In this document: positions 5,720-32,865 of the stretch, piece after piece | Numbering within the stretch: position 1 is the first letter of the stretch | Layout: every line of letters begins with the position of its first letter | Source: an uncultured Clostridia bacterium | GTDB taxonomy: Bacteria > Bacillota > Clostridia > Oscillospirales > Acutalibacteraceae | Direction: 5' to 3' | Assembly (NCBI GenBank): GCA_944384895.1 | Contig: CALWVB010000012.1 | Span: 1-57,963, forward strand | Length of the DNA stretch: 57,963 nt | The notes under the pieces: generated by a model | Told to the model about the DNA's origin: nothing | The model's database searches: none | What the model saw: only the letters and a program-made list of their open reading frames with translations | Made by a program: the position numbers and the translations under genes

Positions 5720-6272
5720 AAATAACCACCGGTCAAACGGGTGGTTTGCTCATCCCTATAAGGGGTAGTTTCCGGCCAGCGCCTAAAGACGCTGGCTTTC
5801 ACTTTGTTTAAGCCTATTGCCTTTACCTCATTTGCCGCCCCTTAAATGGCGTTGTATTACTTGCTACCTTTGAAAGGGTCTTCATACTCTCGTACATTCA
5901 ATTTATCGAGTGCTATATCGTGCTTCTCTTGCTCCTTCTATGTATTTCCGTATTGTTGCTTCATTAAGTCCTACTGTACTTACATAGTAAGCCTCTGCCC
6001 TAAAATGTCTGTTTCCGTACTTATACTTTAAATTTTTGTGTTTATCAAATATCATCAATGCACTTTTGCCTTTTAAGTATCCCACAAAACTTGACACACT
6101 TATTTTGGGTGATATACTTAACAATAGATGTGCATGGTCGGGGCATCATATTTCCTTCCAGTATTTCTACTCCTTTGTATTTACACAGTATTCTTATGAT
6201 TACTTGTAAATCTGCTCTATACTGCCCATATATTGTTTTTCTACGGTACTTAGGTATGAAAGCTATGCTATC
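5720..6272 (-). mobile_element. Degenerate IS200/IS605-family element (tnpA remnant plus downstream subterminal hairpins)
   Basis: Y1-transposase homology across three reading frames. Hairpins lie downstream of the tnpA stop at 5775-5796 (GCCAGCG/CGCTGGC) and 5724-5747 (ACCACC/GGTGGT). Confidence 0.7.
5857..6272 (-). pseudogene. tnpA: IS200/IS605 Y1 transposase TnpA, 5'-truncated with at least two frameshifts
   Basis: The minus strand reads DSIAFIPKYRRKTIYGQYRADLQVIIRILCKYKGVEILEGNMMP. A frameshift follows at the G4/C4 run 6140-6143. Next comes DHAHLLLSISPKISVSSFVGYLKGKSALMIFDKHKNLKYKYGNRHF..YYVSTVGLNEATIRKYI, carrying the HUH motif and catalytic Tyr region. A second frameshift lies near 5931-5943, then EQEKHDIALDKLNVREYEDPFKGSK and a stop. 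About 18 N-terminal residues are missing, with a TAG directly upstream of DSIAF. Confidence 0.8.
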
Positions 6273-6605
6273 CTAAATCAAACAATATATAAAAATATGC
6301 ATTTATAATAAAGAAAATATTTTAGGTTATGTTATCGTAAATAAGGGGGCGCCTGCGTGCAACCATATAAAATATGGTTGCCAAATGCAAAATAATTTGA
6401 TAAATAAAGATGATGGATATTTAAGGGAATTAGATTCTCTTTATAACTCAGTATAAATATTTTAGAAATTATTTTGCGTAAAGCGCATCTTTAGATGCGC
6501 TGCGCAGGCGCCCCCAATAAATGGTGCTTTTACATTATCTTTTCGTTTTTATTTTAGCTTTATTATAAATTCTTTATTTTAGATGATTTAAATCATCTTA
6601 GAAAA
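6254..6605 (+). repeat. Extended homology unit, copy 1 of a three-copy intergenic element
   Basis: Aligns by eye with the reverse complement of 15459-15838 on both sides of the core. Left flank: AAATCAAACAATATATAAAAAT...AGGTTAYGTTAYCGTAAA. Right flank: GGTRCTTTTACATTATCTTTTC...TGATTTAAATYATCTTAGAAAA. Confidence 0.75.
6345..6515 (+). ncRNA. Candidate structured core (GC-clamped four-stem fold), copy 1; RNA versus ssDNA function unresolved
   Basis: Outer stem GGGGGCGCCTGCG (6345-6357) pairs with CGCAGGCGCCCCC (6503-6515). Hairpin GCAACCATAT/ATATGGTTGC. Long-range stem GCAAAATAATTT/AAATTATTTTGC. Hairpin GCGCATCT/AGATGCGC. GC-only pairing in an AT-rich intergenic region. Confidence 0.5.
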
Positions 6606-6634
6606 CACTATGTGATACTTACACATCCATTTAA

Positions 6635-6695
6635 CTCACCTTTCTTTTTTGCAATAAGCCTAAATATTTTATTGTATCACGAAGGTGAGTTTTTT
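6635..6695 (+). terminator. Hairpin plus U-tract (long loop), terminator candidate T1
   Basis: CTCACCTT (6635-6642) pairs with AAGGTGAG (6682-6689), followed by TTTTTT. Confidence 0.4.
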
Positions 6696-6714
6696 GATTT
6701 AACGCTTTGTCGCC

Positions 6715-6737
6715 CACCCGCATAGCGGGTGTTTTTT
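6715..6737 (+). terminator. Rho-independent terminator T2
   Basis: CACCCGC-ata-GCGGGTG followed by TTTTTT. Confidence 0.7.
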
Positions 6738-6779
6738 GTTTCGTGCCTTGCGCACTCTACTGTCTAAAGATACTAGTAT

Positions 6780-6815
6780 AAAAAAATCCACTGAATTTTT
6801 CAGTGGATTTTTTTA
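6780..6815. terminator. Bidirectional Rho-independent terminator T3
   Basis: A7-ATCCACTGAA/TTCAGTGGAT-T7. Confidence 0.7.
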
Positions 6816-8907: not shown

Positions 8908-9831
8908 ATGCCTTTTGAAATTAATTTTGTTTTAATTGGTATAATTGCTTTAGTAATAATTGCTATTATTATTTTAATATCAAATATAAAAATCGTTCCT
9001 CAAGCTTATGCATATGTTATTGAAAGCCTTGGTGCGTATAAAGAAACATGGAGTACTGGTCTTCATTTTAAAGTACCATTTTTTCAAAAAGTTGCAAAGG
9101 TTGTTTCTTTAAAAGAACAAGTTGCAGATTTTCCACCTCAACCGGTTATCACAAAAGATAATGTAACAATTCAAATTGATACGGTTATATTTTTCCAAAT
9201 CACTGATCCAAAGCTGTATACATACGGCGTTGAACGTCCGTTGTCAGCTATTGAAAATTTATCGGCTACTACTCTTAGAAATATTATTGGCGACTTGGAG
9301 CTTGACAGTACTTTAACTTCCCGTGATGTTATTAATTCTAAAATACGTTCTATTCTTGATGAAGCTACTGATCCATGGGGTATTAAAGTAAACCGTGTAG
9401 AACTTAAAAATATCATTCCACCGCGTGAAATTCAGGATGCTATGGAAAAACAGATGAAAGCTGAACGTGAACGCCGTGAATCTATCCTTAAAGCTGAAGG
9501 TGAAAAACGCAGCCAGATTCTTGTTGCTGAAGGTCATAAGGAATCTGCTATATTAAGAGCAGAAGCTGTTAAAGAAGCTAAAATCCGTGAAGCAGAAGGT
9601 GAAGCTCAGGCGATTATGCAGGTTCAAAAGGCACTTGCTGATTCTATTGAACTGCTTAATAAAGCAAATCCTCGTGAATCTGTTGTTGCTATAAAAAGCC
9701 TTGAAGCATTTGCAAAGGCTGCTGATGGAAAAGCTACAAAGATTATTATTCCATCAAATATTCAGTCAATGGCTGGACTTGCTACATCACTTAAAGAACT
9801 TATTGTTGATGATAAAAATCCAGGCCAATAG
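8908..9831 (+). CDS. SPFH/Band-7 (stomatin-like) protein
   Basis: N-terminal TM anchor, SPFH core (VPQAYAYVIESLGAYK...ITKDNV) and a Glu/Ala-rich coiled coil EKQMKAERERRESILKAEGEK. AGGAGG RBS. Confidence 0.85.
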   Translation: MPFEINFVLIGIIALVIIAIIILISNIKIVPQAYAYVIESLGAYKETWSTGLHFKVPFFQKVAKVVSLKEQVADFPPQPVITKDNVTIQIDTVIFFQITDPKLYTYGVERPLSAIENLSATTLRNIIGDLELDSTLTSRDVINSKIRSILDEATDPWGIKVNRVELKNIIPPREIQDAMEKQMKAERERRESILKAEGEKRSQILVAEGHKESAILRAEAVKEAKIREAEGEAQAIMQVQKALADSIELLNKANPRESVVAIKSLEAFAKAADGKATKIIIPSNIQSMAGLATSLKELIVDDKNPGQ

Positions 9832-15297: not shown

Positions 15298-15387
15298 GAG
15301 GGGACACCCGCGGGCGGCTATTTAGCCGCCCCTGCATTTGCAGGGAATGCATCTTTTGAGATGCATTCCGCGGGCGTCCCTCCCTCT
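15298..15387. other. GC-rich four-way-junction palindrome cluster (outer stem enclosing three perfect hairpins)
   Basis: GAGGGGACACCCGCGG pairs with CCGCGGGCGTCCCTCCCTC. The stem encloses GCGGCTA/TAGCCGC, CCCTGCA/TGCAGGG and GAATGCATCT/AGATGCATTC with no linkers. A7 lies upstream on + (U7 on the minus strand). Confidence 0.6.
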
Positions 15388-15458: not shown

Positions 15459-15838
15459 TTTTCTAAGATAATTTAAATCACTCAAAACAAAAGAATAAAT
15501 AATAAACTAAGATAAAAAATGAAAAGATAATGTAAAAGTACCGATTATGGAGGCGCCTGCGCAGCGCATCTAAAGATGCGCTTTACGCAAAATAATTTCT
15601 TAAATACTAAGGCTGAGTTAAAAAGAGAAACTAGTATTATCTTAAATGCTCATCATATTTATATAGAAAATTATTTTGCATTTGGCAACCATATGAAATA
15701 TGGTTGCACGCAGGCGCCCCCTTTTTTTACGGTAACGTAACCTGAAATGTTTTCTTTAATATATATTGCAATTTTTACTTTCATTTTTATATATTGTTTG
15801 ATTTGAGATAATATAGCTTTAAGTATTCTTCATACGTT
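15459..15838 (-). repeat. Extended homology unit, copy 2 (inverted relative to copy 1)
   Basis: The reverse complement aligns with 6254-6605, including both flanks of the core. It retains the GTATGAA..AGCTAT segment that in copy 1 overlaps the 5' edge of the tnpA remnant, but has no transposase ORF. Confidence 0.75.
15549..15721 (-). ncRNA. Candidate structured core, copy 2
   Basis: The same four paired regions as copy 1 have identical stem sequences, apart from one A/C mismatch in the outer stem (GGAGG versus CCCCC). Hairpin loops and the ~65-nt interior differ. Confidence 0.5.
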
Positions 15839-22425: not shown

Positions 22426-25400
22426 TTATTGAGCGATTATTGATACTGTAAGTTCAGCAGTATCTTCAATCCAATTTCCATTTGCATCCTTAGCTTTAAC
22501 AGTTATTTTTCTATTATTGCCTTTGGATCCAAACTGTGTTTCAAATACCCAGATAACTTGATCTCCGTCTTCAGTTTGACTTATAAGCGCTTTGCCTATG
22601 TCTTTACCAGATTCATTTGCAAAAGCTAATGCAGAAACACCTTTTGATGTTTTTACTTCAACTTTGAAATTGGTATTAACAACAGCTGTTTTCTGAGAAG
22701 ATACACTGATAATATCAGCTTGAACGTTTTCATCTGCAATATATGCATCAGAAGCGACTACTTTAATTGGAAGATCAGCAACCTTATCAACTGAATCACC
22801 TACAGCAGCATAGATACCAAATACTCTGTCGCCTTTAGTACCAATTGACATATTTAATGTCCATAATTTTGTACCATTGACATTTTCTTTAACATCAATT
22901 ACAGATACACCCATAAGAGCATCATATTCATTTAAGAAGGTAAGTGATTCAACATTTGCTTCAGTTAAGATAACAACTTCAAAGTTGTCATTAGCTTTAA
23001 CTGTATAGTTTTCAGTTTTACCATCTACACTGATAATATTAAAATACTGTTCAAATACTTTAATATTAAATGTTGCTGAAGTTTCTTCAAATCCATTACC
23101 ATAATCTGCAAGGATAGTGAATGTCCTATCACCTTTAGTAGCAGCAGATATGTATAATGTCCATGTTAATGTACCATCATCATTTGTTACTACATCAGCA
23201 ACAGTTGTACCCATATTCAAGTCAAATTCATTATCGACAGTAAGATCTTTTACTAATGCATCAGTCTTTACAACAACTTTGATTGGAGTATTGATTATTG
23301 CAATAGCATCTTCAGTTACATCATTAACACTAATTACTTCTACTGACTTAGTTACAGGTTGTACATTAATAGCAGCATAGATTGCATCAATAGCATTAGC
23401 TATTTCAGTAGGAGTTGCATTTGGATTTACATAAACCATTAAACCTTCGTTTACAGCAGCAACAAGATTATTAATTTCAGTTTCTGACCAGTCAGTTGTA
23501 TCAACATTATTAGCTTCAGTAATAGCTGCAAGGAGATCAGCTTTTGTAGCAGCAGGTTTACTTGTTTCGCCATAAACAATCCATTCAACTATACCGACAG
23601 CAGATGCTGTTGGAGAAGCTTCAATAACAAGTTGAAGTTCTGTTGTTTCAACTTCATCAAATTTAGCATAGTTAAATCCATTGCCAGAACCTGCTTTTGC
23701 ATTTGCTCTGTCAATAAGAGTACAATTTGGAACAGGTACTAATTCTCCATCTGCATTTCTATAATAAAGTGTAGCGCTTTCTGGAGGTTCAACACCTGCA
23801 GATGAACCATAGTTACCATCGCAATGCCAGAGAATATCAATACTATCAACTTTAACAGGAGTATCCCATGTATAAGTTACAGTATGAGGTCCCTTTTCAG
23901 GCCATGTACCCCATGCATCATTTTCAGCAACCTGACGGTATGTTGTAGTTGGATCTGATTGTTTACCATCGTTAATAGCTGCTTCTGAATTCCAGGTTGT
24001 GCAATAAGATGTATCAACTGAAGCATCAAGAGCTACGTTATCTTTAAGAACTTCTGGACGTGTAGCAATTTCTGCACCGTAAACGATCCATTCAACTATA
24101 CCAACAGCTGCAGCTCCTGGAGCTGGTTCAATAACAAGCTGGAGTTCTGTTGTTGTTATTTCATCAAACTGTGCATAATTAAATCCATTACCAGAACCTG
24201 CTTTTGCATTGCTATTACCTATAAGTGAACAATTAGGTACTTCTACTAATTCACCATCAGCATCTTTATAATAAAGTGTAGCGCTTTCTGGAGGCTGTAC
24301 ACCGCCGGATCCGCCATAATCAACATCGCAATGCCAAAGGATATCAATACCGTCTATCTTAACAGGATTTTCCCATGTATAAGTTACAGTATGAGGACCT
24401 TCTTCAGGCCATGTACCCCATGCGTCACCTTCACTAGCTTGACGGTAGGTAATTGTTGGATCTGATTGTTTACCATCGTTAATAGCTGCTTCTGAATTCC
24501 AGGTTGTGCAGTAAGTTGTATCTACAGTGGCTTTAAGAGCTACATTTCCTTTAAGCTCTTCCGGACGTAAAGAACTATTAACTACAGTGATTGTAAATGT
24601 ATCAGAATATGTTCCATTACTTACTGTGTAAGTTAAGGATCCAAGTTCCTGTGGAGCTGGGAAGCTTACTGTAAATGTACGCTGTCCACGAGCATCTTTA
24701 TATGTAGATGTTACTTCTACAGGTTCATCATTACATGTTACTATGATTTCTTCAACTGAATCGTCAGTTTTTACTGTAAATTCAACTGTTTCACCAGTAG
24801 CATAAGATTTTTCATTAGCCTGAAGAACAAATTTTAATACAAGATTTGTTACAGCTTTTGTTACATCATTTGCAGCAGCGTCGATCATATCCTGATCAGC
24901 TGATGTAAGTTCAGCTTCTTTTGCTATAATAGCTTCAGCAGCGCTTATAGCTTCTTGAAGAGCATTATAGCTCTTTTCTGTATAATCGTCTGGTTCATAT
25001 GCTTTTGCAGAATTAACAGCACCTTTAATACCTGTCATATTTGCAGGTGTAATTATTTCTGTATGTTCGTCGCTTGTAAATTTAACAGCAGTTACAGAAT
25101 ATTTTGGTACTGTAATTGTTACAGAATCACCACAGTTTTCAATAACTTCTGTTGTTGGAGCTGGAGTTTGATTAAGATCTGTTACTGTATTAATACCATA
25201 GAGGTTATCACTTGTGAGAGTGCTTATAACAGCATCACGTTGTGTAACAGCTGGGAGATTTACTGCATTTACAGTAATAGATAATGGATAATCATTTCTA
25301 TTTACATATTTAACGTATACTTCGCCTGTAGAAGTATCTACAGAAGCTGAATAAGCAGTAAGTTTATCAGAAGCTGCTTCGGATTTAATAAGTTTATCGC

Positions 25401-29801: not shown

Positions 29802-30794
29802 ATGGAATTAATGGCAAAAGCTCCTATTATTTTACGTGAATATTTAGGTTATATGGAAACCATACGTGGTAAATCTTCTAAGACTGTAGAAGAATATTAT
29901 ATTGATTTAAGGACATTTTTTAGATATTTAAAATTATCTCGCGGCCTTATAGATAAAAAAGCTGATTTTAAAGATATTAATATTGATGATATTAATTTAG
30001 ATATTATATCATCCGTAACATTAACCGAAGTCTACGAATATATGAATTATTTAAGCGATATAAGAAAAAATAAAGCCGCTGCCAGAGCACGTAAAGCATC
30101 AAGTTTAAAATCATTTTATAAATATTTATATGATCAAAATAAAATATCTCATAATCCTGTTGAAAAATTAGAACCTGCAAAACAAAAAAAAGCTTTGCCT
30201 AAATATTTAACTCTTGAAGATAGCCTTGAAATGCTTGATAAAATTGACGGCAAATATTCTGAACGCAATTATTGTATCGTAACTTTATTTTTAAACTGCG
30301 GTATAAGATTATCCGAATTATGTGGACTTAATATAAGTGATATTCGTAAGGATAATACATTAAGAGTACTTGGTAAAGGTAATAAAGAACGAACGGTATA
30401 TCTAAATAAAGCTTGTATTGATGCTATTGATAATTATTTAAAAGTACGTCCTATAAATATAAAAGAAAAAGATAAAAATGCTTTATTTATAAGTCGTAAT
30501 GGCAATAGATTAAGCCATCAGGCTGTACAGTTATTAATAAAAAAATTATTTACTCAAATGGGTATTGCCAGCCAAGGTTATTCTGTACATAAACTTCGCC
30601 ATACTGCTGCTACGCTTATGTATCAATATGGTAATATTGATATACGTACATTAAAAGAGATATTAGGCCATGAAAATCTTAATACAACTGAAATATATAC
30701 CCATGTAAGTGACAATGAATTAAAAAAAGCTATAGATGCAAATCCATTATCAAATATAAAAAGAAAATCTAAAAAATCAAATAATGATACTTAG
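29802..30794 (+). CDS. Xer-type site-specific tyrosine recombinase
   Basis: SAM-like N-domain (TVEEYYIDLRTFFRYL, ARARKASSLKSFYKYL). Catalytic residues in GIRLSEL (Arg), HKLRHTAAT (His-x-x-Arg) and LGHENLNTTEIYTHV (His, Tyr). Start ATG 29802 preferred over GTG 29787. Confidence 0.85.
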   Translation: MELMAKAPIILREYLGYMETIRGKSSKTVEEYYIDLRTFFRYLKLSRGLIDKKADFKDINIDDINLDIISSVTLTEVYEYMNYLSDIRKNKAAARARKASSLKSFYKYLYDQNKISHNPVEKLEPAKQKKALPKYLTLEDSLEMLDKIDGKYSERNYCIVTLFLNCGIRLSELCGLNISDIRKDNTLRVLGKGNKERTVYLNKACIDAIDNYLKVRPINIKEKDKNALFISRNGNRLSHQAVQLLIKKLFTQMGIASQGYSVHKLRHTAATLMYQYGNIDIRTLKEILGHENLNTTEIYTHVSDNELKKAIDANPLSNIKRKSKKSNNDT

Positions 30795-30830: not shown

Positions 30831-31067
30831 TTATATTATTATAATATCTATTTTTTGACAAACCTAACAAATGGATTCCACAAACATTTTATATAGAAAA
30901 ACACTCGCAGGTAGCGTGGTCAAAAAGAAGGCCTATGCCGATGATGGAGAAAAAACTCCGTTTATTATAAAATAAACTTGCGGTTCGGCTAAAGTAAGTG
31001 ACAACAAAAGGAGAATAATCAAAAGAATTCCCCAAATAGTTTGTTACATTCACAAAGCAATATAGCG

Positions 31068-31335
31068 ACAGATAAGGTAAATGTACAGCAAAAGCGGGGC
31101 GCCTGCCCAGCGCATCATTTAGATGCGCTGGAACGCAAAATAATTTTTAAATATGAAAGCTGAGTAAAAATAAGGAACTAGTATTTCCCTAAAAATCAGC
31201 GTCTTTAATTTTATAAATTATTTTGCGTAAAGCAGACATATGAAACATGTCTGTGCGCAGGCGCCCCGCTTTAATGTATCGTAGCCCTGATAGGCTTTAT
31301 TATAAATATCGTGAATATTTTTAATAATATAATAA
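31068..31335 (-). repeat. Extended homology unit, copy 3 (divergent)
   Basis: The flanks AGATAAGGTAAATGTAC and CTTTATTATAAAT..ATATTTTTA align with the copy 1 and 2 flanks. Homology is shorter than between copies 1 and 2. Confidence 0.6.
31094..31269 (-). ncRNA. Candidate structured core, copy 3
   Basis: GCGGGGCGCCTGC pairs with GCAGGCGCCCCGC. Hairpin CCAGCGCATC/GATGCGCTGG. Stem CGCAAAATAATTT/AAATTATTTTGCG. The hairpin CAGACAT/ATGTCTG replaces CAACCAT/ATGGTTG through two compensatory pair changes. Confidence 0.5.
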
Positions 31336-31404
31336 TCTCATGCGCCTGTCAGCTCGTATCAACGTGATGTGACACGGTTGCTGATATATAGAGCTTGTCC
31401 TTAT

Positions 31405-31445
31405 AATAAATATCCCCCCGCTTTGCGGGGGAATATTTATTATTT
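31405..31445. terminator. Terminator downstream of the 5S-like carboxyltransferase gene
   Basis: CCCCCGC-ttt-GCGGGGG with flanking AT-rich tracts. Confidence 0.6.
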
Positions 31446-31464
31446 GAGAATATTTAATATTTCA

Positions 31465-32865
31465 TTATACAGGATGAACCTTATTTTCCATATCAAGCAG
31501 ATCGCCATTTAATCCATATTTTTTATTACGACGGTTTTCAAAGAATTTTAAAGCAACCTGGTCAAACTGGGCATAAGATAATACGTCTTCTTCCTGTTCA
31601 ACAAATTCAGATGGAATTTCTGCGCGCAATTTATCCAATTCCGATTTAATAAGATCAGCTGGACGGCAAGTAATAGGCTTTTCATTACCAATAATCTTTT
31701 TACGGAATTCTGGAGAAATTGGTACAGGAGTCTGGCCATATTCACCGCGTATAATACCTTTAAATTCCTTAGTAACCATCTTATAACGTTCTCCGCCTAT
31801 TATATTAAATACAGCTTGTGTACCAACAATTTGAGATGTAGGTGTAACAAGAGGCGGATAACCTGCATCTTTACGTACTCTAGGTACTTCCCTGAGAACT
31901 TCATCAAGCTTATCAAGTTTACCGGCTTGTTTAAGCTGGGAAACAAGATTGGATAACATTCCACCTGGCACCTGATAAAGCAATGTATTAGCGTCAACAC
32001 CAAGCATTTTTGTATTAAGAAGGCCGCTTTCGATATATTTTTCACGTAAAGTTTCAAAATAGTCTCTAATACTGGTTAATTTTTTAAGATCAATACCTGT
32101 ATCATATTTAGTACCCTTTAAAGCAGCTACCATAGATTCTGTAGCTGGATGTGAAGTACCAAGAGCTAATGGAGACATGGCTGTATCAATTATATCAACA
32201 CCAGCTTCAATACCTTTAAGCATAACCATAGATGCAAGGCCGGAAGTATAATGTGAATGAAGCTGAATAGGAATTTTAACTGCTGATTTTAAAGCTTTAA
32301 CAAGCTCATAAGTGCTAAATGGAGTTAAAAGACCAGCCATATCTTTTATACAAATAGAATCAGCGCCGGCATTTTCAAGCTTTTTAGCATATTTTACATA
32401 ATAATCAGTAGTAAATACTTCGCCGGTTGTATAAGAAATAGCAGCCTGAAGATGAGCTTTTTCATGTTTTGTAGCTTTAATAGCTGTTTCAAGATTTCTT
32501 ACATCATTTAAAGCATCAAATATACGCAGGATATCAATACCGTTTGCAACAGAACGTTCTACAAAATATTGTACAACATCATCAGCATAATGACGATAAC
32601 CTAACATATTCTGACCACGGAATAACATTTGCAGTTTTGTATTTTTACATTTATCACGGATTATACGAAGCCTTTCCCAAGGATCTTCATTTAAAAAACG
32701 GAGACAAGCATCAAATGTAGCTCCGCCCCAGCATTCCAATGAATGAAAGCCGACTGCATCAAGCTGTTCAAGCACAGGGAGCATTTCTTCTGTTGTCATA
32801 CGGGTAGCTATCAGCGATTGATGTGCATCGCGAAGCACCGTTTCTGTTATTTTAACTTGAGCCAA
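31465..32865 (-). CDS. Oxaloacetate decarboxylase alpha / transcarboxylase 5S-type carboxyltransferase (no biotinyl domain)
   Basis: ITETVLRDAHQSL (HMGL-like TIM barrel) and the KDMAGLL carbamylated-Lys motif. 466 aa, ending before any biotin domain. TTG start behind GAGGTG. Confidence 0.85.
   Translation of the reverse strand: MAQVKITETVLRDAHQSLIATRMTTEEMLPVLEQLDAVGFHSLECWGGATFDACLRFLNEDPWERLRIIRDKCKNTKLQMLFRGQNMLGYRHYADDVVQYFVERSVANGIDILRIFDALNDVRNLETAIKATKHEKAHLQAAISYTTGEVFTTDYYVKYAKKLENAGADSICIKDMAGLLTPFSTYELVKALKSAVKIPIQLHSHYTSGLASMVMLKGIEAGVDIIDTAMSPLALGTSHPATESMVAALKGTKYDTGIDLKKLTSIRDYFETLREKYIESGLLNTKMLGVDANTLLYQVPGGMLSNLVSQLKQAGKLDKLDEVLREVPRVRKDAGYPPLVTPTSQIVGTQAVFNIIGGERYKMVTKEFKGIIRGEYGQTPVPISPEFRKKIIGNEKPITCRPADLIKSELDKLRAEIPSEFVEQEEDVLSYAQFDQVALKFFENRRNKKYGLNGDLLDMENKVHPV

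What the first reader, a model, noticed from the sequence alone, without database searches (positions are those of the whole stretch)
31068..31335. Divergent copy 3 shows compensatory base-pair changes that preserve the fold
Copy 3 keeps the outer stem, shifted outward by one pair (GCGGGGCGCCTGC/GCAGGCGCCCCGC). It also keeps the long-range stem (CGCAAAATAATTT/AAATTATTTTGCG) and the GCATC hairpin, lengthened by two pairs (CCAGCGCATC/GATGCGCTGG). The second hairpin has changed from CAACCAT/ATGGTTG to CAGACAT/ATGTCTG. That means A-T became G-C and C-G became A-T at adjacent positions, while the loop motif ATGAAA is retained. Two double substitutions that both restore pairing are direct evidence that the structure, not the sequence, is under selection. 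In the interior a small hairpin also co-varies (GAAT/ATTC in copy 1, GGAA/TTCC in copy 3), and ACTCAG is invariant in all three copies. The copy lies about 300 nt downstream of a tyrosine recombinase gene.
Basis: seen in the sequence. Interest (0 to 1): 0.8.

Follow-up and report, generated by a model that had tools for sequence, protein, structure and literature searches.

The report
Mobile repeat with conserved cloverleaf core
The "copy 3" hairpins are real and their compensated base pairs hold up, but they are the core of a roughly 350-base, gene-less mobile repeat scattered through this low-GC gut-type Clostridia genome, the same general kind as the Bacillus bcr1 repeat, not a site tied to the neighbouring recombinase.

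Summary
Window 31094-31269 folds into a GC-rich outer stem enclosing hairpin A, a long AT-rich stem and hairpin B (z about -13 on both strands). Its hairpin B differs from copies 1 and 2 by two adjacent compensated pairs.

Across 50 copies (3 in the window, 47 from one metagenome), 44 pairs are 96% paired. Twelve pairs show double changes (0 of 500 shuffles reach this).

The unit is larger than reported: about 345-360 nt, with AT-rich arms and defined ends ((T)CTAAGATAAT...ATATAGCTTT). It has no ORF and lies between housekeeping genes in either orientation. Short-read assemblies break at it.

Copy 1 sits inside an IS200 transposase gene. Five further copies, in three other tnpA lineages, interrupt the gene at the same codon and in the same orientation. 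So the element inserts site-specifically.

No strand asymmetry was found (G·T 8, A·C 8). Hairpin loops occur in both orientations, which points to DNA-level palindrome dynamics rather than a one-strand RNA. There is no Rfam match and no link to the Xer-like recombinase.

Best reading: a new family of structured, non-autonomous interspersed repeats (bcr1/MITE/PATE-like). The mobilising enzyme is unknown.

The parts
31094..31269 (+). Copy 3, cloverleaf core: outer stem 31094-31106/31257-31269; hairpin A 31107-31131; long stem 31134-31146/31215-31227; hairpin B 31233-31253
   Evidence: covariance model R1 157 bits on +, 96 bits on -
31060..31321 (+). Copy 3, the extent still recognisable as family sequence (profile positions 55-318 of 350). 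The outer arms and ends have decayed.
   Evidence: nhmmer; alignment
15463..15819 (+). Copy 2, full-length element (core 15548-15722), between purD and a DUF4364 gene
   Evidence: Metagenome contigs of the same species end at about 15487-15578.
6259..6602 (-). Copy 1, full-length element (core 6344-6516), nested inside an IS200 copy
6603..6783 (-). IS200 left end and the first tnpA codons (...WMCKYHIVF), upstream of the copy 1 insertion
   Evidence: 76-86% identity to intact IS200 L087/L089
5722..6258 (-). Remainder of the IS200 (tnpA from IPKYRRK onward, frameshifted pseudogene, plus the right end ...GGTGGTTAT)
   Evidence: The two IS200 parts add up to about 718 nt once the element is removed, a typical IS200 size.
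15299..15382 (-). 84-nt 'mini' relative. It has the same outer stem, GCATC hairpin and third hairpin, but the long arm is reduced to CTGCAAATGCAG.
   Evidence: R1 44.5 bits, E about 1e-7, matched end to end; DNA fold z -9.1

Best explanation
The three window copies belong to a multi-copy, gene-less, mobile interspersed repeat of about 345-360 nt.

Shown:
- The whole element is a long imperfect palindrome. An A-rich left arm pairs loosely with a T-rich right arm. The tip is a GC-rich four-way junction made of the outer stem, the GCGCATC hairpin, a variable-length AT stem and a third hairpin.
- It has defined ends ((T)CTAAGATAATTTAAATCA ... TGATTTAGGATAATATAGCTTT), unrelated flanks, no ORF, and lies between genes in any orientation.
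- It enters DNA site- and orientation-specifically, immediately 3' of a T-run. The preferred target, ATATAG(N)1-2TTT, resembles the element's own right end. This explains repeated hits at the codons for KYHI(V/I/E)(F/L) in at least four lineages of IS200-type tnpA.
- The junction core is the best-conserved part. It keeps its pairing through compensated changes even in very divergent members.

Inferred:
- It is moved in trans by an enzyme encoded elsewhere.
- A target motif abutting the left end, with a similar motif at the right end, and no clear target duplication is the pattern of IS605 (Y1/HUH) and IS607 (serine recombinase) elements. It also fits the 'site-specific-recombination-like' behaviour proposed for bcr1.
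- The cloverleaf would be the cis-acting module that this enzyme, or a host factor, recognises in folded single-stranded or cruciform DNA.
- Pairing is kept by that constraint together with template-switch self-correction of the palindromes.
For: Copy number and dispersal:
- A metagenome scan gave 31 loci. nhmmer and the covariance model find about 57 distinct copies in 248 kb there, plus 3 in the window.
- Neighbours are single-copy housekeeping genes, and no transposase family is enriched.
- Copies are intergenic with no orientation bias: upstream gene same/opposite 23/26, downstream 19/29.
- Assemblies of the same species break inside the repeat.

Ends and flanks:
- 16 full copies align from (T)CTAAGAT to ATAGCTTT, and the flanks are unrelated.

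Insertion:
- Copy 1 splits an otherwise colinear IS200.
- Copies in L091 (two), L098, L101 and L116 split tnpA genes that are 34-74% identical to the reference, at the same codon and in the same orientation.

Structure:
- RNAalifold consensus and pair counts.
- Divergent length variants of 84-250 nt keep the junction.

DNA-level behaviour:
- Loop flips, G·T equal to A·C, and both strands fold equally well.
- At the orthologous copy 2 locus the hairpin B loop differs between about 98%-identical strains.

Analogy:
- bcr1 is about 155 bp, is flanked by 5-bp direct repeats, and has a cruciform structure kept by compensatory changes (PMC3184786). The TTTAT motif and a site-specific-recombination-like mechanism are described in PMC6542083.
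- In IS607/IS605 the target motif (TGGG) mirrors the right-end motif (TCGG) (10.1101/2023.11.20.567912).
Against: - No autonomous partner or candidate enzyme was found.
- No empty-versus-filled orthologous site was recovered for a canonical copy. Mobility therefore rests on dispersal plus the nested tnpA insertions.
- The nearest stable hairpin lies 85-100 nt from either end, unlike IS608-type ends (about 10-20 nt).
- The element's ends and hairpins do not resemble those of the one IS200 examined.
- There is no clear orientation bias relative to genes, as strict lagging-strand targeting might give.
- An imperfect 18-bp terminal inverted repeat (12/18) and matching TTTG / TTTTG / ATTTG flanks in three copies could mean a classical DDE-type MITE with a 3-5-bp duplication. 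A permutation test shows no copy-specific duplication overall.
- Conservation is highest in the interior rather than at the ends, which is atypical for MITEs and could reflect a host or RNA function.
- Nearly all copies outside the window come from one metagenome project, and the genome-collection scan was uninformative. Distribution is therefore poorly known.
Confidence: 0.72

Rival explanations
1. It is a structured non-coding RNA: a multi-copy sRNA gene, or an RNA module carried by a mobile element. The compensated stems would reflect selection on the RNA fold.
For: - Strong fold and covariation.
- A variable-length middle stem with a conserved junction is typical of structured RNAs.
- Orientation is well defined: R1 scores about 200 bits forward against about 110 reverse.
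- Canonical copies have a -10-like GATAAT/TAATGT about 20 nt before the outer stem and a T-run after it.
- bcr1, the closest analogue, is reported to be transcribed.
Against: - No Rfam family matches, at gathering thresholds or at E up to 10.
- G·T equals A·C (8 vs 8), and the reverse strand folds slightly better.
- Loops occur in both orientations.
- No convincing -35 box. The promoter scan does not flag a + strand promoter just upstream of copy 3.
- The T-run is absent in divergent members.
- About one copy per few kb in the sampled contigs, with random position and orientation relative to genes, does not fit a regulator or a leader.
Confidence: 0.12
2. It is a classical MITE moved by a DDE transposase. 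It would have terminal inverted repeats (CTAAGATAATTTAAATCA / TGATTTAGGATAATATAG) and a 3-5-bp duplication of a T-rich target. The cloverleaf would be passenger sequence kept by palindrome self-correction.
For: - Imperfect 18-bp inverted termini (12/18), and arms that pair along the whole length.
- TTT on both sides of most copies.
- Matching TTTG / TTTTG / ATTTG on both sides in L094, L119 and L091.
- The tnpA junctions are compatible with an ATTTG/ATTTA duplication.
Against: - The permutation test finds no copy-specific duplication (p > 0.2 for k = 3-5).
- The base after ATATAG is C in nearly all copies whatever the left flank is.
- Six of six tnpA insertions share one orientation, whereas DDE insertions usually go both ways.
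- The interior is more conserved than the termini. Copy 3 and other old copies keep the core but lose the ends.
- No IS with these ends was seen.
Confidence: 0.2
3. It is a recombination site for the neighbouring tyrosine recombinase: a folded single-stranded site like an integron attC or the CTX-phage attP, or a dif-like site.
For: - Copy 3 lies 300 nt downstream of a Xer-family gene.
- L098 has a distant Xer-like gene about 700 nt from a copy.
- A four-way junction resembles a Holliday junction.
- Folded-ssDNA substrates of tyrosine recombinases are established (own knowledge).
Against: - Copies 1 and 2 and about 55 other copies have no recombinase nearby.
- The protein is a generic Xer-family member below the equivalog cut-offs.
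- The element's boundaries lie 85-100 nt away from the junction, not inside it.
- No attC R/L boxes and no cassette array. The weak resemblance of GATAATGTAAAAGT to a XerD half-site is not kept in copy 3 (GATAAGGTAAATGT).
Confidence: 0.04
4. It is a host-exapted element: a bidirectional terminator, an insulator, or a nucleoid-protein or cruciform site. The host would maintain it regardless of how it spread.
For: - GC-rich stems survive in a 33% GC genome, even in decayed copies such as copy 3 and the mini copy.
- Canonical copies have CCCCC followed by T6-7.
- Many copies lie at gene 3' ends, and copies 2 and 3 lie between convergent genes.
Against: - The T-run follows a stem that encloses 150 nt, which makes a poor intrinsic terminator. 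It is also missing in divergent members.
- Nine copies lie between divergent genes.
- Copy 3 is followed by a separate ordinary terminator at 31413-31432.
- Related species with 82-86% identical PurH lack the element at the purD locus.
Confidence: 0.1

Closest known systems
bcr1 and the other group A 'Bacillus cereus repeats' (Okstad 2004; Klevan 2007; Kristoffersen 2011, as summarised in PMC3184786 and PMC6542083)
   Same: - Firmicute host; intergenic, gene-less, multi-copy.
- Non-conserved positions, with T-rich short repeats at the junctions (TTTAT for bcr1).
- Cruciform-like fold with independent stem-loops kept by compensatory changes.
- Mobilising enzyme unknown; a site-specific-recombination-like mechanism has been proposed.
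   Different: - About 350 nt against about 155 nt.
- A GC-rich four-way junction at the tip of a long AT-rich hairpin.
- The host is an uncultured low-GC relative of Oscillospirales-type Clostridia, not Bacillus.
- The target resembles the element's own right end, with a hot spot inside IS200 tnpA.
- Sequence homology to bcr1 could not be tested because no bcr1 sequence was available.
IS200/IS605- and IS607-type elements and their gene-less derivatives (PATEs)
   Same: - No convincing target duplication.
- Orientation-specific insertion 3' of a short motif that abuts the left end, with a related motif ending the right end (compare TGGG/TCGG in IS607 and TTGAT in IS605 IStrons).
- Strongly folded DNA.
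- IS200-type tnpA genes are abundant in the same genome.
   Different: - The hairpins are central, 85-100 nt from the ends, instead of subterminal.
- The two side hairpins are unlike each other.
- No similarity to the ends of the IS200 examined.
- No tnpB or omega-RNA.
- No strand bias detected.
Classical bacterial MITEs (Correia/NEMIS, RUP, ERIC and others)
   Same: Short, non-autonomous, AT-rich target, foldable along the whole length, intergenic.
   Different: - The terminal inverted repeats are weak (12/18).
- Target duplication is not demonstrable.
- The interior is more conserved than the ends.
- Insertion into the tnpA target always has one orientation.
REP/REPIN elements with RAYT transposases
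   Same: GC-rich palindromes in intergenic DNA, and a presumed link to Y1 (IS200-like) enzymes acting on hairpins.
   Different: - REPs are 20-40 nt with GTAG/CGTC tags and flank a single RAYT gene.
- Here the unit is about 350 nt, lacks those tags, and interrupts tnpA genes rather than flanking them.

Membership tests
Any Rfam RNA family | Match to a curated covariance model | tested here: not met
   No hit at gathering thresholds in the whole window. At E up to 10 there are only sub-threshold chance hits over 30900-31470, the best at 26.7 bits against a 56-bit cut-off.
Structured ncRNA (generic) | Covariation supporting a conserved fold | tested here: met
   12 of 44 pairs have double changes and 96.4% of cells are paired; 0 of 500 shuffles reach this. 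The test does not separate RNA from DNA hairpins.
Structured ncRNA (generic) | Strand-specific signature (G·U tolerated on the transcribed strand only; one strand folds better) | tested here: not met
   G·T/T·G is 8 and A·C/C·A is 8. Mean MFE is -80.7 forward against -82.3 reverse.
Structured ncRNA (generic) | Own promoter and terminator, or a constant position relative to a gene | tested here: inconclusive
   Only a -10-like box is present. The T-run occurs in canonical copies only. Position and orientation relative to genes are random.
Classical MITE (DDE-mobilised) | Short, gene-less, multi-copy, dispersed | tested here: met
   About 60 copies of 345-360 nt without an ORF.
Classical MITE (DDE-mobilised) | Terminal inverted repeats | tested here: inconclusive
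   12/18 matches between CTAAGATAATTTAAATCA and the reverse complement of TGATTTAGGATAATATAG (read). The same ends also share a direct repeat, T(T/C)TA(G/A)GATAAT.
Classical MITE (DDE-mobilised) | Copy-specific target-site duplication | tested here: inconclusive
   Permutation p > 0.2 for 3-5 nt. However, three copies have matching (A/T)TTTG on both sides. The T-runs blur the junctions.
Classical MITE (DDE-mobilised) | A parent IS with the same ends | not testable with these tools
   None occurs in the 248 kb of loci. The host genome is not available as a whole.
bcr1 / BCR group A | Sequence homology to the bcr1-3 consensus; restricted to the B. cereus group | not tested
   No bcr sequence was available (PMC524882 is not held). 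The host's nearest named PurH relatives are Clostridia (names are truncated), so family membership is unlikely.
bcr1 / BCR group A | Cruciform-like fold kept by compensatory changes; short T-rich repeats at the junctions | tested here: met
   compared with the description.
IS200/IS605 gene-less derivative (PATE) | Subterminal hairpins about 10-20 nt from each end | tested here: not met
   The outer stem starts about 85 nt from the left end and ends about 100 nt from the right end. The arms have only weak AT pairing.
IS200/IS605 gene-less derivative (PATE) | Oriented insertion 3' of a short target abutting the left end, with no duplication | tested here: met
   Left flanks end in TTT(T/G). Six of six tnpA insertions are at the same nucleotide and in the same orientation.
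IS200/IS605 gene-less derivative (PATE) | Ends related to an autonomous IS200/IS605 of the same genome | tested here: not met
   The IS200 hosting copy 1 has the left end TCTTTAGAC...CACCCGCTATGCGGGTG and the right end ...CCACCCGTTTGACCGGTGGTTAT, which are unrelated. Other IS lineages were not examined at their ends.
REP/REPIN-RAYT | 20-40-nt palindromes with a GTAG/CGTC tag, flanking a RAYT gene | tested here: not met
   The unit is about 350 nt with no such tag. The tnpA genes are interrupted, not flanked.
Integron attC / Xer-exploiting element | Crossover site inside the folded hairpin; R/L boxes (GTTRRRY) or a dif-like core; linkage to intI or Xer | tested here: not met
   The boundaries lie far from the junction. 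There is no linkage to recombinases. The recombinase next to copy 3 is a generic Xer family member.
tRNA/tmRNA-like | Recognised by ARAGORN | tested here: not met
   No tRNA or tmRNA in the window.

The most novel reading that the evidence does not exclude
The GC-rich four-way junction is the recognition module of a previously undescribed class of non-autonomous element. An as-yet unidentified enzyme (HUH, serine or tyrosine type) would move it as folded single-stranded or cruciform DNA. It would home sequence-specifically into the conserved KYHIVF codon block of IS200-family transposase genes, making it a parasite, or silencer, of another transposon's transposase.
Probability: 0.2. Interest if true: 0.7.

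Novelty: new member of a known kind. Interest (0 to 1): 0.45.

Why it matters
This gives a name and boundaries to a repeat that fragments assemblies of an uncultured low-GC Clostridia lineage. It also shows that what looks like textbook RNA covariation sits in a mobile DNA palindrome, where loop flips and template switching can produce the same signal. That is a useful caution for covariation-based ncRNA discovery.

If the mechanism were worked out, two features could reveal a new way of recognising transposon ends and targets. One is the conserved four-way junction. The other is the precise, oriented insertion into a conserved codon block of IS200 transposase genes. Together they would also be an example of one mobile element disabling another.

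Tried and rejected
- Rfam at gathering and permissive thresholds: nothing.
- BLAST of the element against plasmid and phage collections: no match.
- Viral-contig pattern scans: 70 hits with the outer stem alone and 1 hit with outer stem plus hairpin A, all chance matches (69 in GC-rich phage DNA, one in a low-GC contig); 0 hits with a long-stem/hairpin B pattern.
Distribution across named species is therefore unknown.
- Exact-protein look-ups gave only the same strain at the copy 1 and copy 3 loci (99.4-99.9% identical, no change inside the elements), so no empty sites were obtained.
- Relatives with 82-86% identical PurH lack the element, but they are 49% GC organisms and too distant to define an empty site.
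- Pfam scan of 139 neighbouring ORFs: no enriched transposase or recombinase.
- Group I/II intron reading of the tnpA interruptions: rejected. The element does not end in G, there is no Rfam intron hit, and most copies are intergenic.
- Using ORFs inside the element as protein-database bait: rejected. Canonical copies have stops within about 15 codons (and inspection).
- Guide-like pairing between the apical hairpin (TTATCTTA) and the end motif (TAAGATAA): no co-variation in copy 1, so not pursued.

Full report
**1. Observation**

As RNA it folds to -89.2 kcal/mol on the + strand and -91.1 on the - strand, with z-scores of -12.7 and -13.4. The structure is a 13-bp GC-rich outer stem enclosing hairpin A (CCAGCGCATC/GATGCGCTGG), a long AT-rich stem (CGCAAAATAATTT/AAATTATTTTGCG) and hairpin B (CAGACAT/ATGTCTG).

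The outer-stem motif recurs at 6344-6516 and about 15550-15722. Those two copies carry CAACCAT/ATGGTTG in hairpin B. Copy 3 therefore differs by two adjacent, fully compensated pairs. Copy 1 is in the opposite orientation to copies 2 and 3.

The loop 'ATGAAA' is not retained in copy 1. The interior helix is poorly maintained across the family.

**2. The unit is larger and is a dispersed repeat**

- Copies 1 and 2 share 83% identity over 364 nt (6259-6605 against 15459-15820), well beyond the 175-nt core.
- Metagenome contigs of the same species that carry purD stop about 236-326 nt past the gene, just inside the repeat. Contigs carrying the M23 peptidase gene likewise stop inside copy 1. This is typical of multi-copy repeats.
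- A fixed-length pattern scan of metagenome contigs returned 31 loci, almost all from one project. nhmmer and a covariance model built here (R1) find about 57 distinct copies in those 248 kb.
- Aligning 16 full-length copies with their flanks gives sharp boundaries. Similarity starts at (T)CTAAGATAATTTAAATCA and ends at TGATTTAGGATAATATAGCTTT. Everything outside is unrelated.
- The element has no ORF. It lies between genes, and its neighbours are ordinary housekeeping genes (ribosomal protein S2, NrdD, GlnA, EPSP synthase and others). No transposase or recombinase family is enriched among them.
- Orientation relative to flanking genes is essentially random: 23 same and 26 opposite upstream; 19 same and 29 opposite downstream.

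**3. Evidence of insertion**

On the minus strand, the sequence next to copy 1 is an IS200-type Y1 transposase pseudogene. Comparison with intact IS200 copies (L087, L089) shows the following order:
- the IS200 left end and the first tnpA codons, up to ...WMCKYHIVF, lie at 6783-6603;
- the element occupies 6602-6259;
- tnpA resumes with IPKYRRK at about 6258 and runs to the IS200 right end at 5722.

Without the element, the IS200 pieces add up to about 718 nt, a typical IS200 size.

Five further copies split tnpA genes at the same codon boundary (KYHI[V/I/E][F/L] | x x K Y) and in the same orientation. These are two in L091 and one each in L098, L101 and L116. The genes are only 34-74% identical to the reference TnpA. 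These tnpA lineages are far more divergent than the elements inside them, so the insertions were independent.

The DNA at that site (ATATCAYATAG[T/A]ATTT) resembles the element's own right end (GATAATATAGCTTT). Several non-tnpA targets also show ATAG followed by a T-run, and most left flanks end in TTT(T/G).

Whether 0 or 3-5 bases are duplicated cannot be settled, because T-runs sit on both sides of the junctions. A permutation test finds no copy-specific duplication. Three copies do have matching (A/T)TTTG on both sides.

**4. Structure across the family**

The analysis used 50 cores: 3 from the window and 47 from the loci (alignment A4).
- RNAalifold recovers the outer stem, hairpin A, the base of the long stem and hairpin B.
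- For these four helices (44 pairs), 96.4% of cells are paired, against 36-51% when partners are slid.
- Twelve pairs show changes on both sides. None of 500 column shuffles reaches any of the measures.
- Examples of compensated changes: outer stem T-A to C-G in 5 copies; hairpin B A-T to G-C in 19, A-T to C-G in 6, and C-G to A-T in copy 3.
- The interior CTGAGT/ACTCAG helix is only about 70% paired.

R1 also detects divergent members with the same architecture but different stem sequences and a middle arm of very different length.
- An 84-nt 'mini' copy sits at window 15299-15382, on the minus strand, 80 nt from copy 2. It scores 44.5 bits and matches the model end to end.
- Variants of 138-142 nt occur in L096, L103 and L093, and a 250-nt variant occurs in L111.

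The four-way junction is thus the conserved module. It is better conserved (88-90% pairwise identity) than the arms (70-74%). The 100% identity of the long-stem base in that table is partly a result of the search pattern. GCAAAATAAT is nevertheless invariant in all 50 cores, including those found only by nhmmer.

**5. RNA or DNA?**

Several results argue against a fold selected in one RNA strand.
- G·T and A·C mismatches are equally frequent in the conserved helices (8 and 8).
- The reverse strand folds slightly better on average (-82.3 against -80.7 kcal/mol).
- There is no Rfam match.
- There is no convincing promoter.
- The T-run after the outer stem is missing in divergent members.

Most telling, the hairpin loops exist in both orientations at comparable frequency among otherwise near-identical copies: CCTTTGG 13 against CCAAAGG 10; CTAAAG 3 against CTTTAG 2; TTC 20 against GAA 7; TTT 8 against AAA 5. 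The hairpin B loop even differs between about 98%-identical strains at the orthologous copy 2 locus.

Spacer inversion together with arm homogenisation is the known signature of replication template switching in inverted repeats. That process creates 'compensatory' substitutions in one step (PMC8794818, PMC8604942). The covariation is therefore real, but it is not by itself proof of selection.

Some constraint is still likely. A perfect GC-rich junction survives in a 33% GC genome, in old copies whose arms have decayed (copy 3 and the mini copy), and in members with quite different stem sequences.

**6. What it is**

The best-supported reading is a new family of non-autonomous, structured interspersed repeats.

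The closest described relatives in kind are the bcr1-type repeats of the Bacillus cereus group. They are about 155 bp, are flanked by 5-bp T-rich repeats, and have a cruciform-like fold kept by compensatory changes. Their enzyme is unknown and a site-specific-recombination-like mechanism has been proposed.

Three features match the logic of IS605 (Y1) and IS607 (serine) elements, where the motif next to the left end mirrors the motif ending the right end:
- oriented insertion 3' of a motif that mimics the right end;
- no clear target duplication;
- a direct repeat, T(T/C)TA(G/A)GATAAT, near both ends.

Against membership of that group, the hairpins are central rather than subterminal, and the ends do not resemble those of the IS200 examined. 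A DDE-type MITE with weak inverted ends and a 3-5-bp duplication remains possible.

I therefore commit to 'mobile, trans-mobilised, folded-DNA element with a cis-acting junction core' at about 0.7. The IS605/IS607-like style of integration is a less certain sub-claim, at about 0.4.

**7. The recombinase**

The gene at 29811-30794 is a generic Xer-family tyrosine recombinase, below the XerC and XerD equivalog cut-offs. Copies 1 and 2 and nearly all other copies have no recombinase nearby. The element's boundaries are also far from the junction. The adjacency is best treated as coincidence.

**8. Host and range**

- The window is an NCBI contig of an unnamed organism.
- Its PurH is 82-86% identical to proteins of Clostridia whose names are truncated in the output ('Soli...', 'Osci...', 'Cand...').
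- Those relatives are about 49% GC and lack the element at the purD locus and in about 21 kb around it.
- No copy was found in plasmid, phage or viral-contig collections.
- The genome-collection scan failed technically, so the true host range is unknown.

**9. Verdict**

The finding is real and correctly described at the sequence level. Its interpretation as selection on a structure is partly right. The element is an unannotated member of a known kind of bacterial repeat, not a recombinase site and not a demonstrable RNA. It has two unusual traits: a conserved four-way junction, and homing into IS200 tnpA.

Noticed in passing
window 15299-15382 (- strand): An 84-nt GC-rich cloverleaf just after purD is a miniature relative of the family. 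It has the same outer stem, GCATC hairpin and third hairpin, but the long arm is reduced to CTGCAAATGCAG, and T7 follows on the minus strand. R1 scores 44.5 bits and the fold z is -9.1. It is single-copy in the data at hand.
   Followed up: partly
window 5722-6783 (- strand): An IS200 copy with a decayed tnpA: a premature stop, at least two frameshifts, W to R in the HFWA motif, and about 36 nt missing at the start codon. Copy 1 splits it in two.
   Followed up: yes
L091:3713-4064 and 9535-9774; L098:4743-5089; L101:1708-2044; L116:916-1125: Element copies interrupt IS200-family tnpA genes of at least three further lineages, at the same codon and in the same orientation. L098 and L091 (second copy) look like duplicates of one IS-plus-element composite.
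   Followed up: partly
window 6259-6602 and 15463-15819: Copies 1 and 2 are 83%-identical inverted repeats. They bracket about 9 kb containing the M23 peptidase, NfeD, Band_7 and purE-purD genes, so they could mediate inversion. No inverted arrangement was seen in L117 or L121.
   Followed up: partly
family-wide; e.g. window 15690-15705 against L077/L117: Hairpin loops occur as reverse complements of each other among near-identical copies, and even between strains at one locus. This is the signature of spacer inversion in palindromes.
   Followed up: yes
element consensus (e.g. L108:3785-4141): The motif TAAGATAA(T) occurs three times in the same orientation: at the left terminus, in the 5' arm of the apical hairpin of the long stem, and 7 nt from the right terminus. 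These are possibly repeated protein-binding sites. No co-variation was seen in copy 1.
   Followed up: partly
window 23570-24376: Two 300-nt copies, 507 nt apart and 79% identical, lie inside the 1814-aa arabinofuranosidase-domain gene. They probably encode repeated domains.
   Followed up: no
window 31413-31432: An ordinary bidirectional intrinsic terminator (CCCCCGCTTTGCGGGGG with T-rich flanks) lies between copy 3 and the oxaloacetate-decarboxylase-like gene. Copy 3 is therefore not needed as the terminator here.
   Followed up: no
L129-L131 against the window: The nearest relatives by PurH (82-86% identity) have about 49% GC against about 33% here. The host is a strongly AT-shifted lineage carrying decayed IS copies and expanded repeats.
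   Followed up: no
right arm of canonical copies (e.g. window 15765-15800): An outward-facing promoter-like TTGCA(A/T)-N17/18-TATAT(A/T) occurs in many copies but is deleted in others, including copy 1. It could drive transcription of the flank.
   Followed up: no
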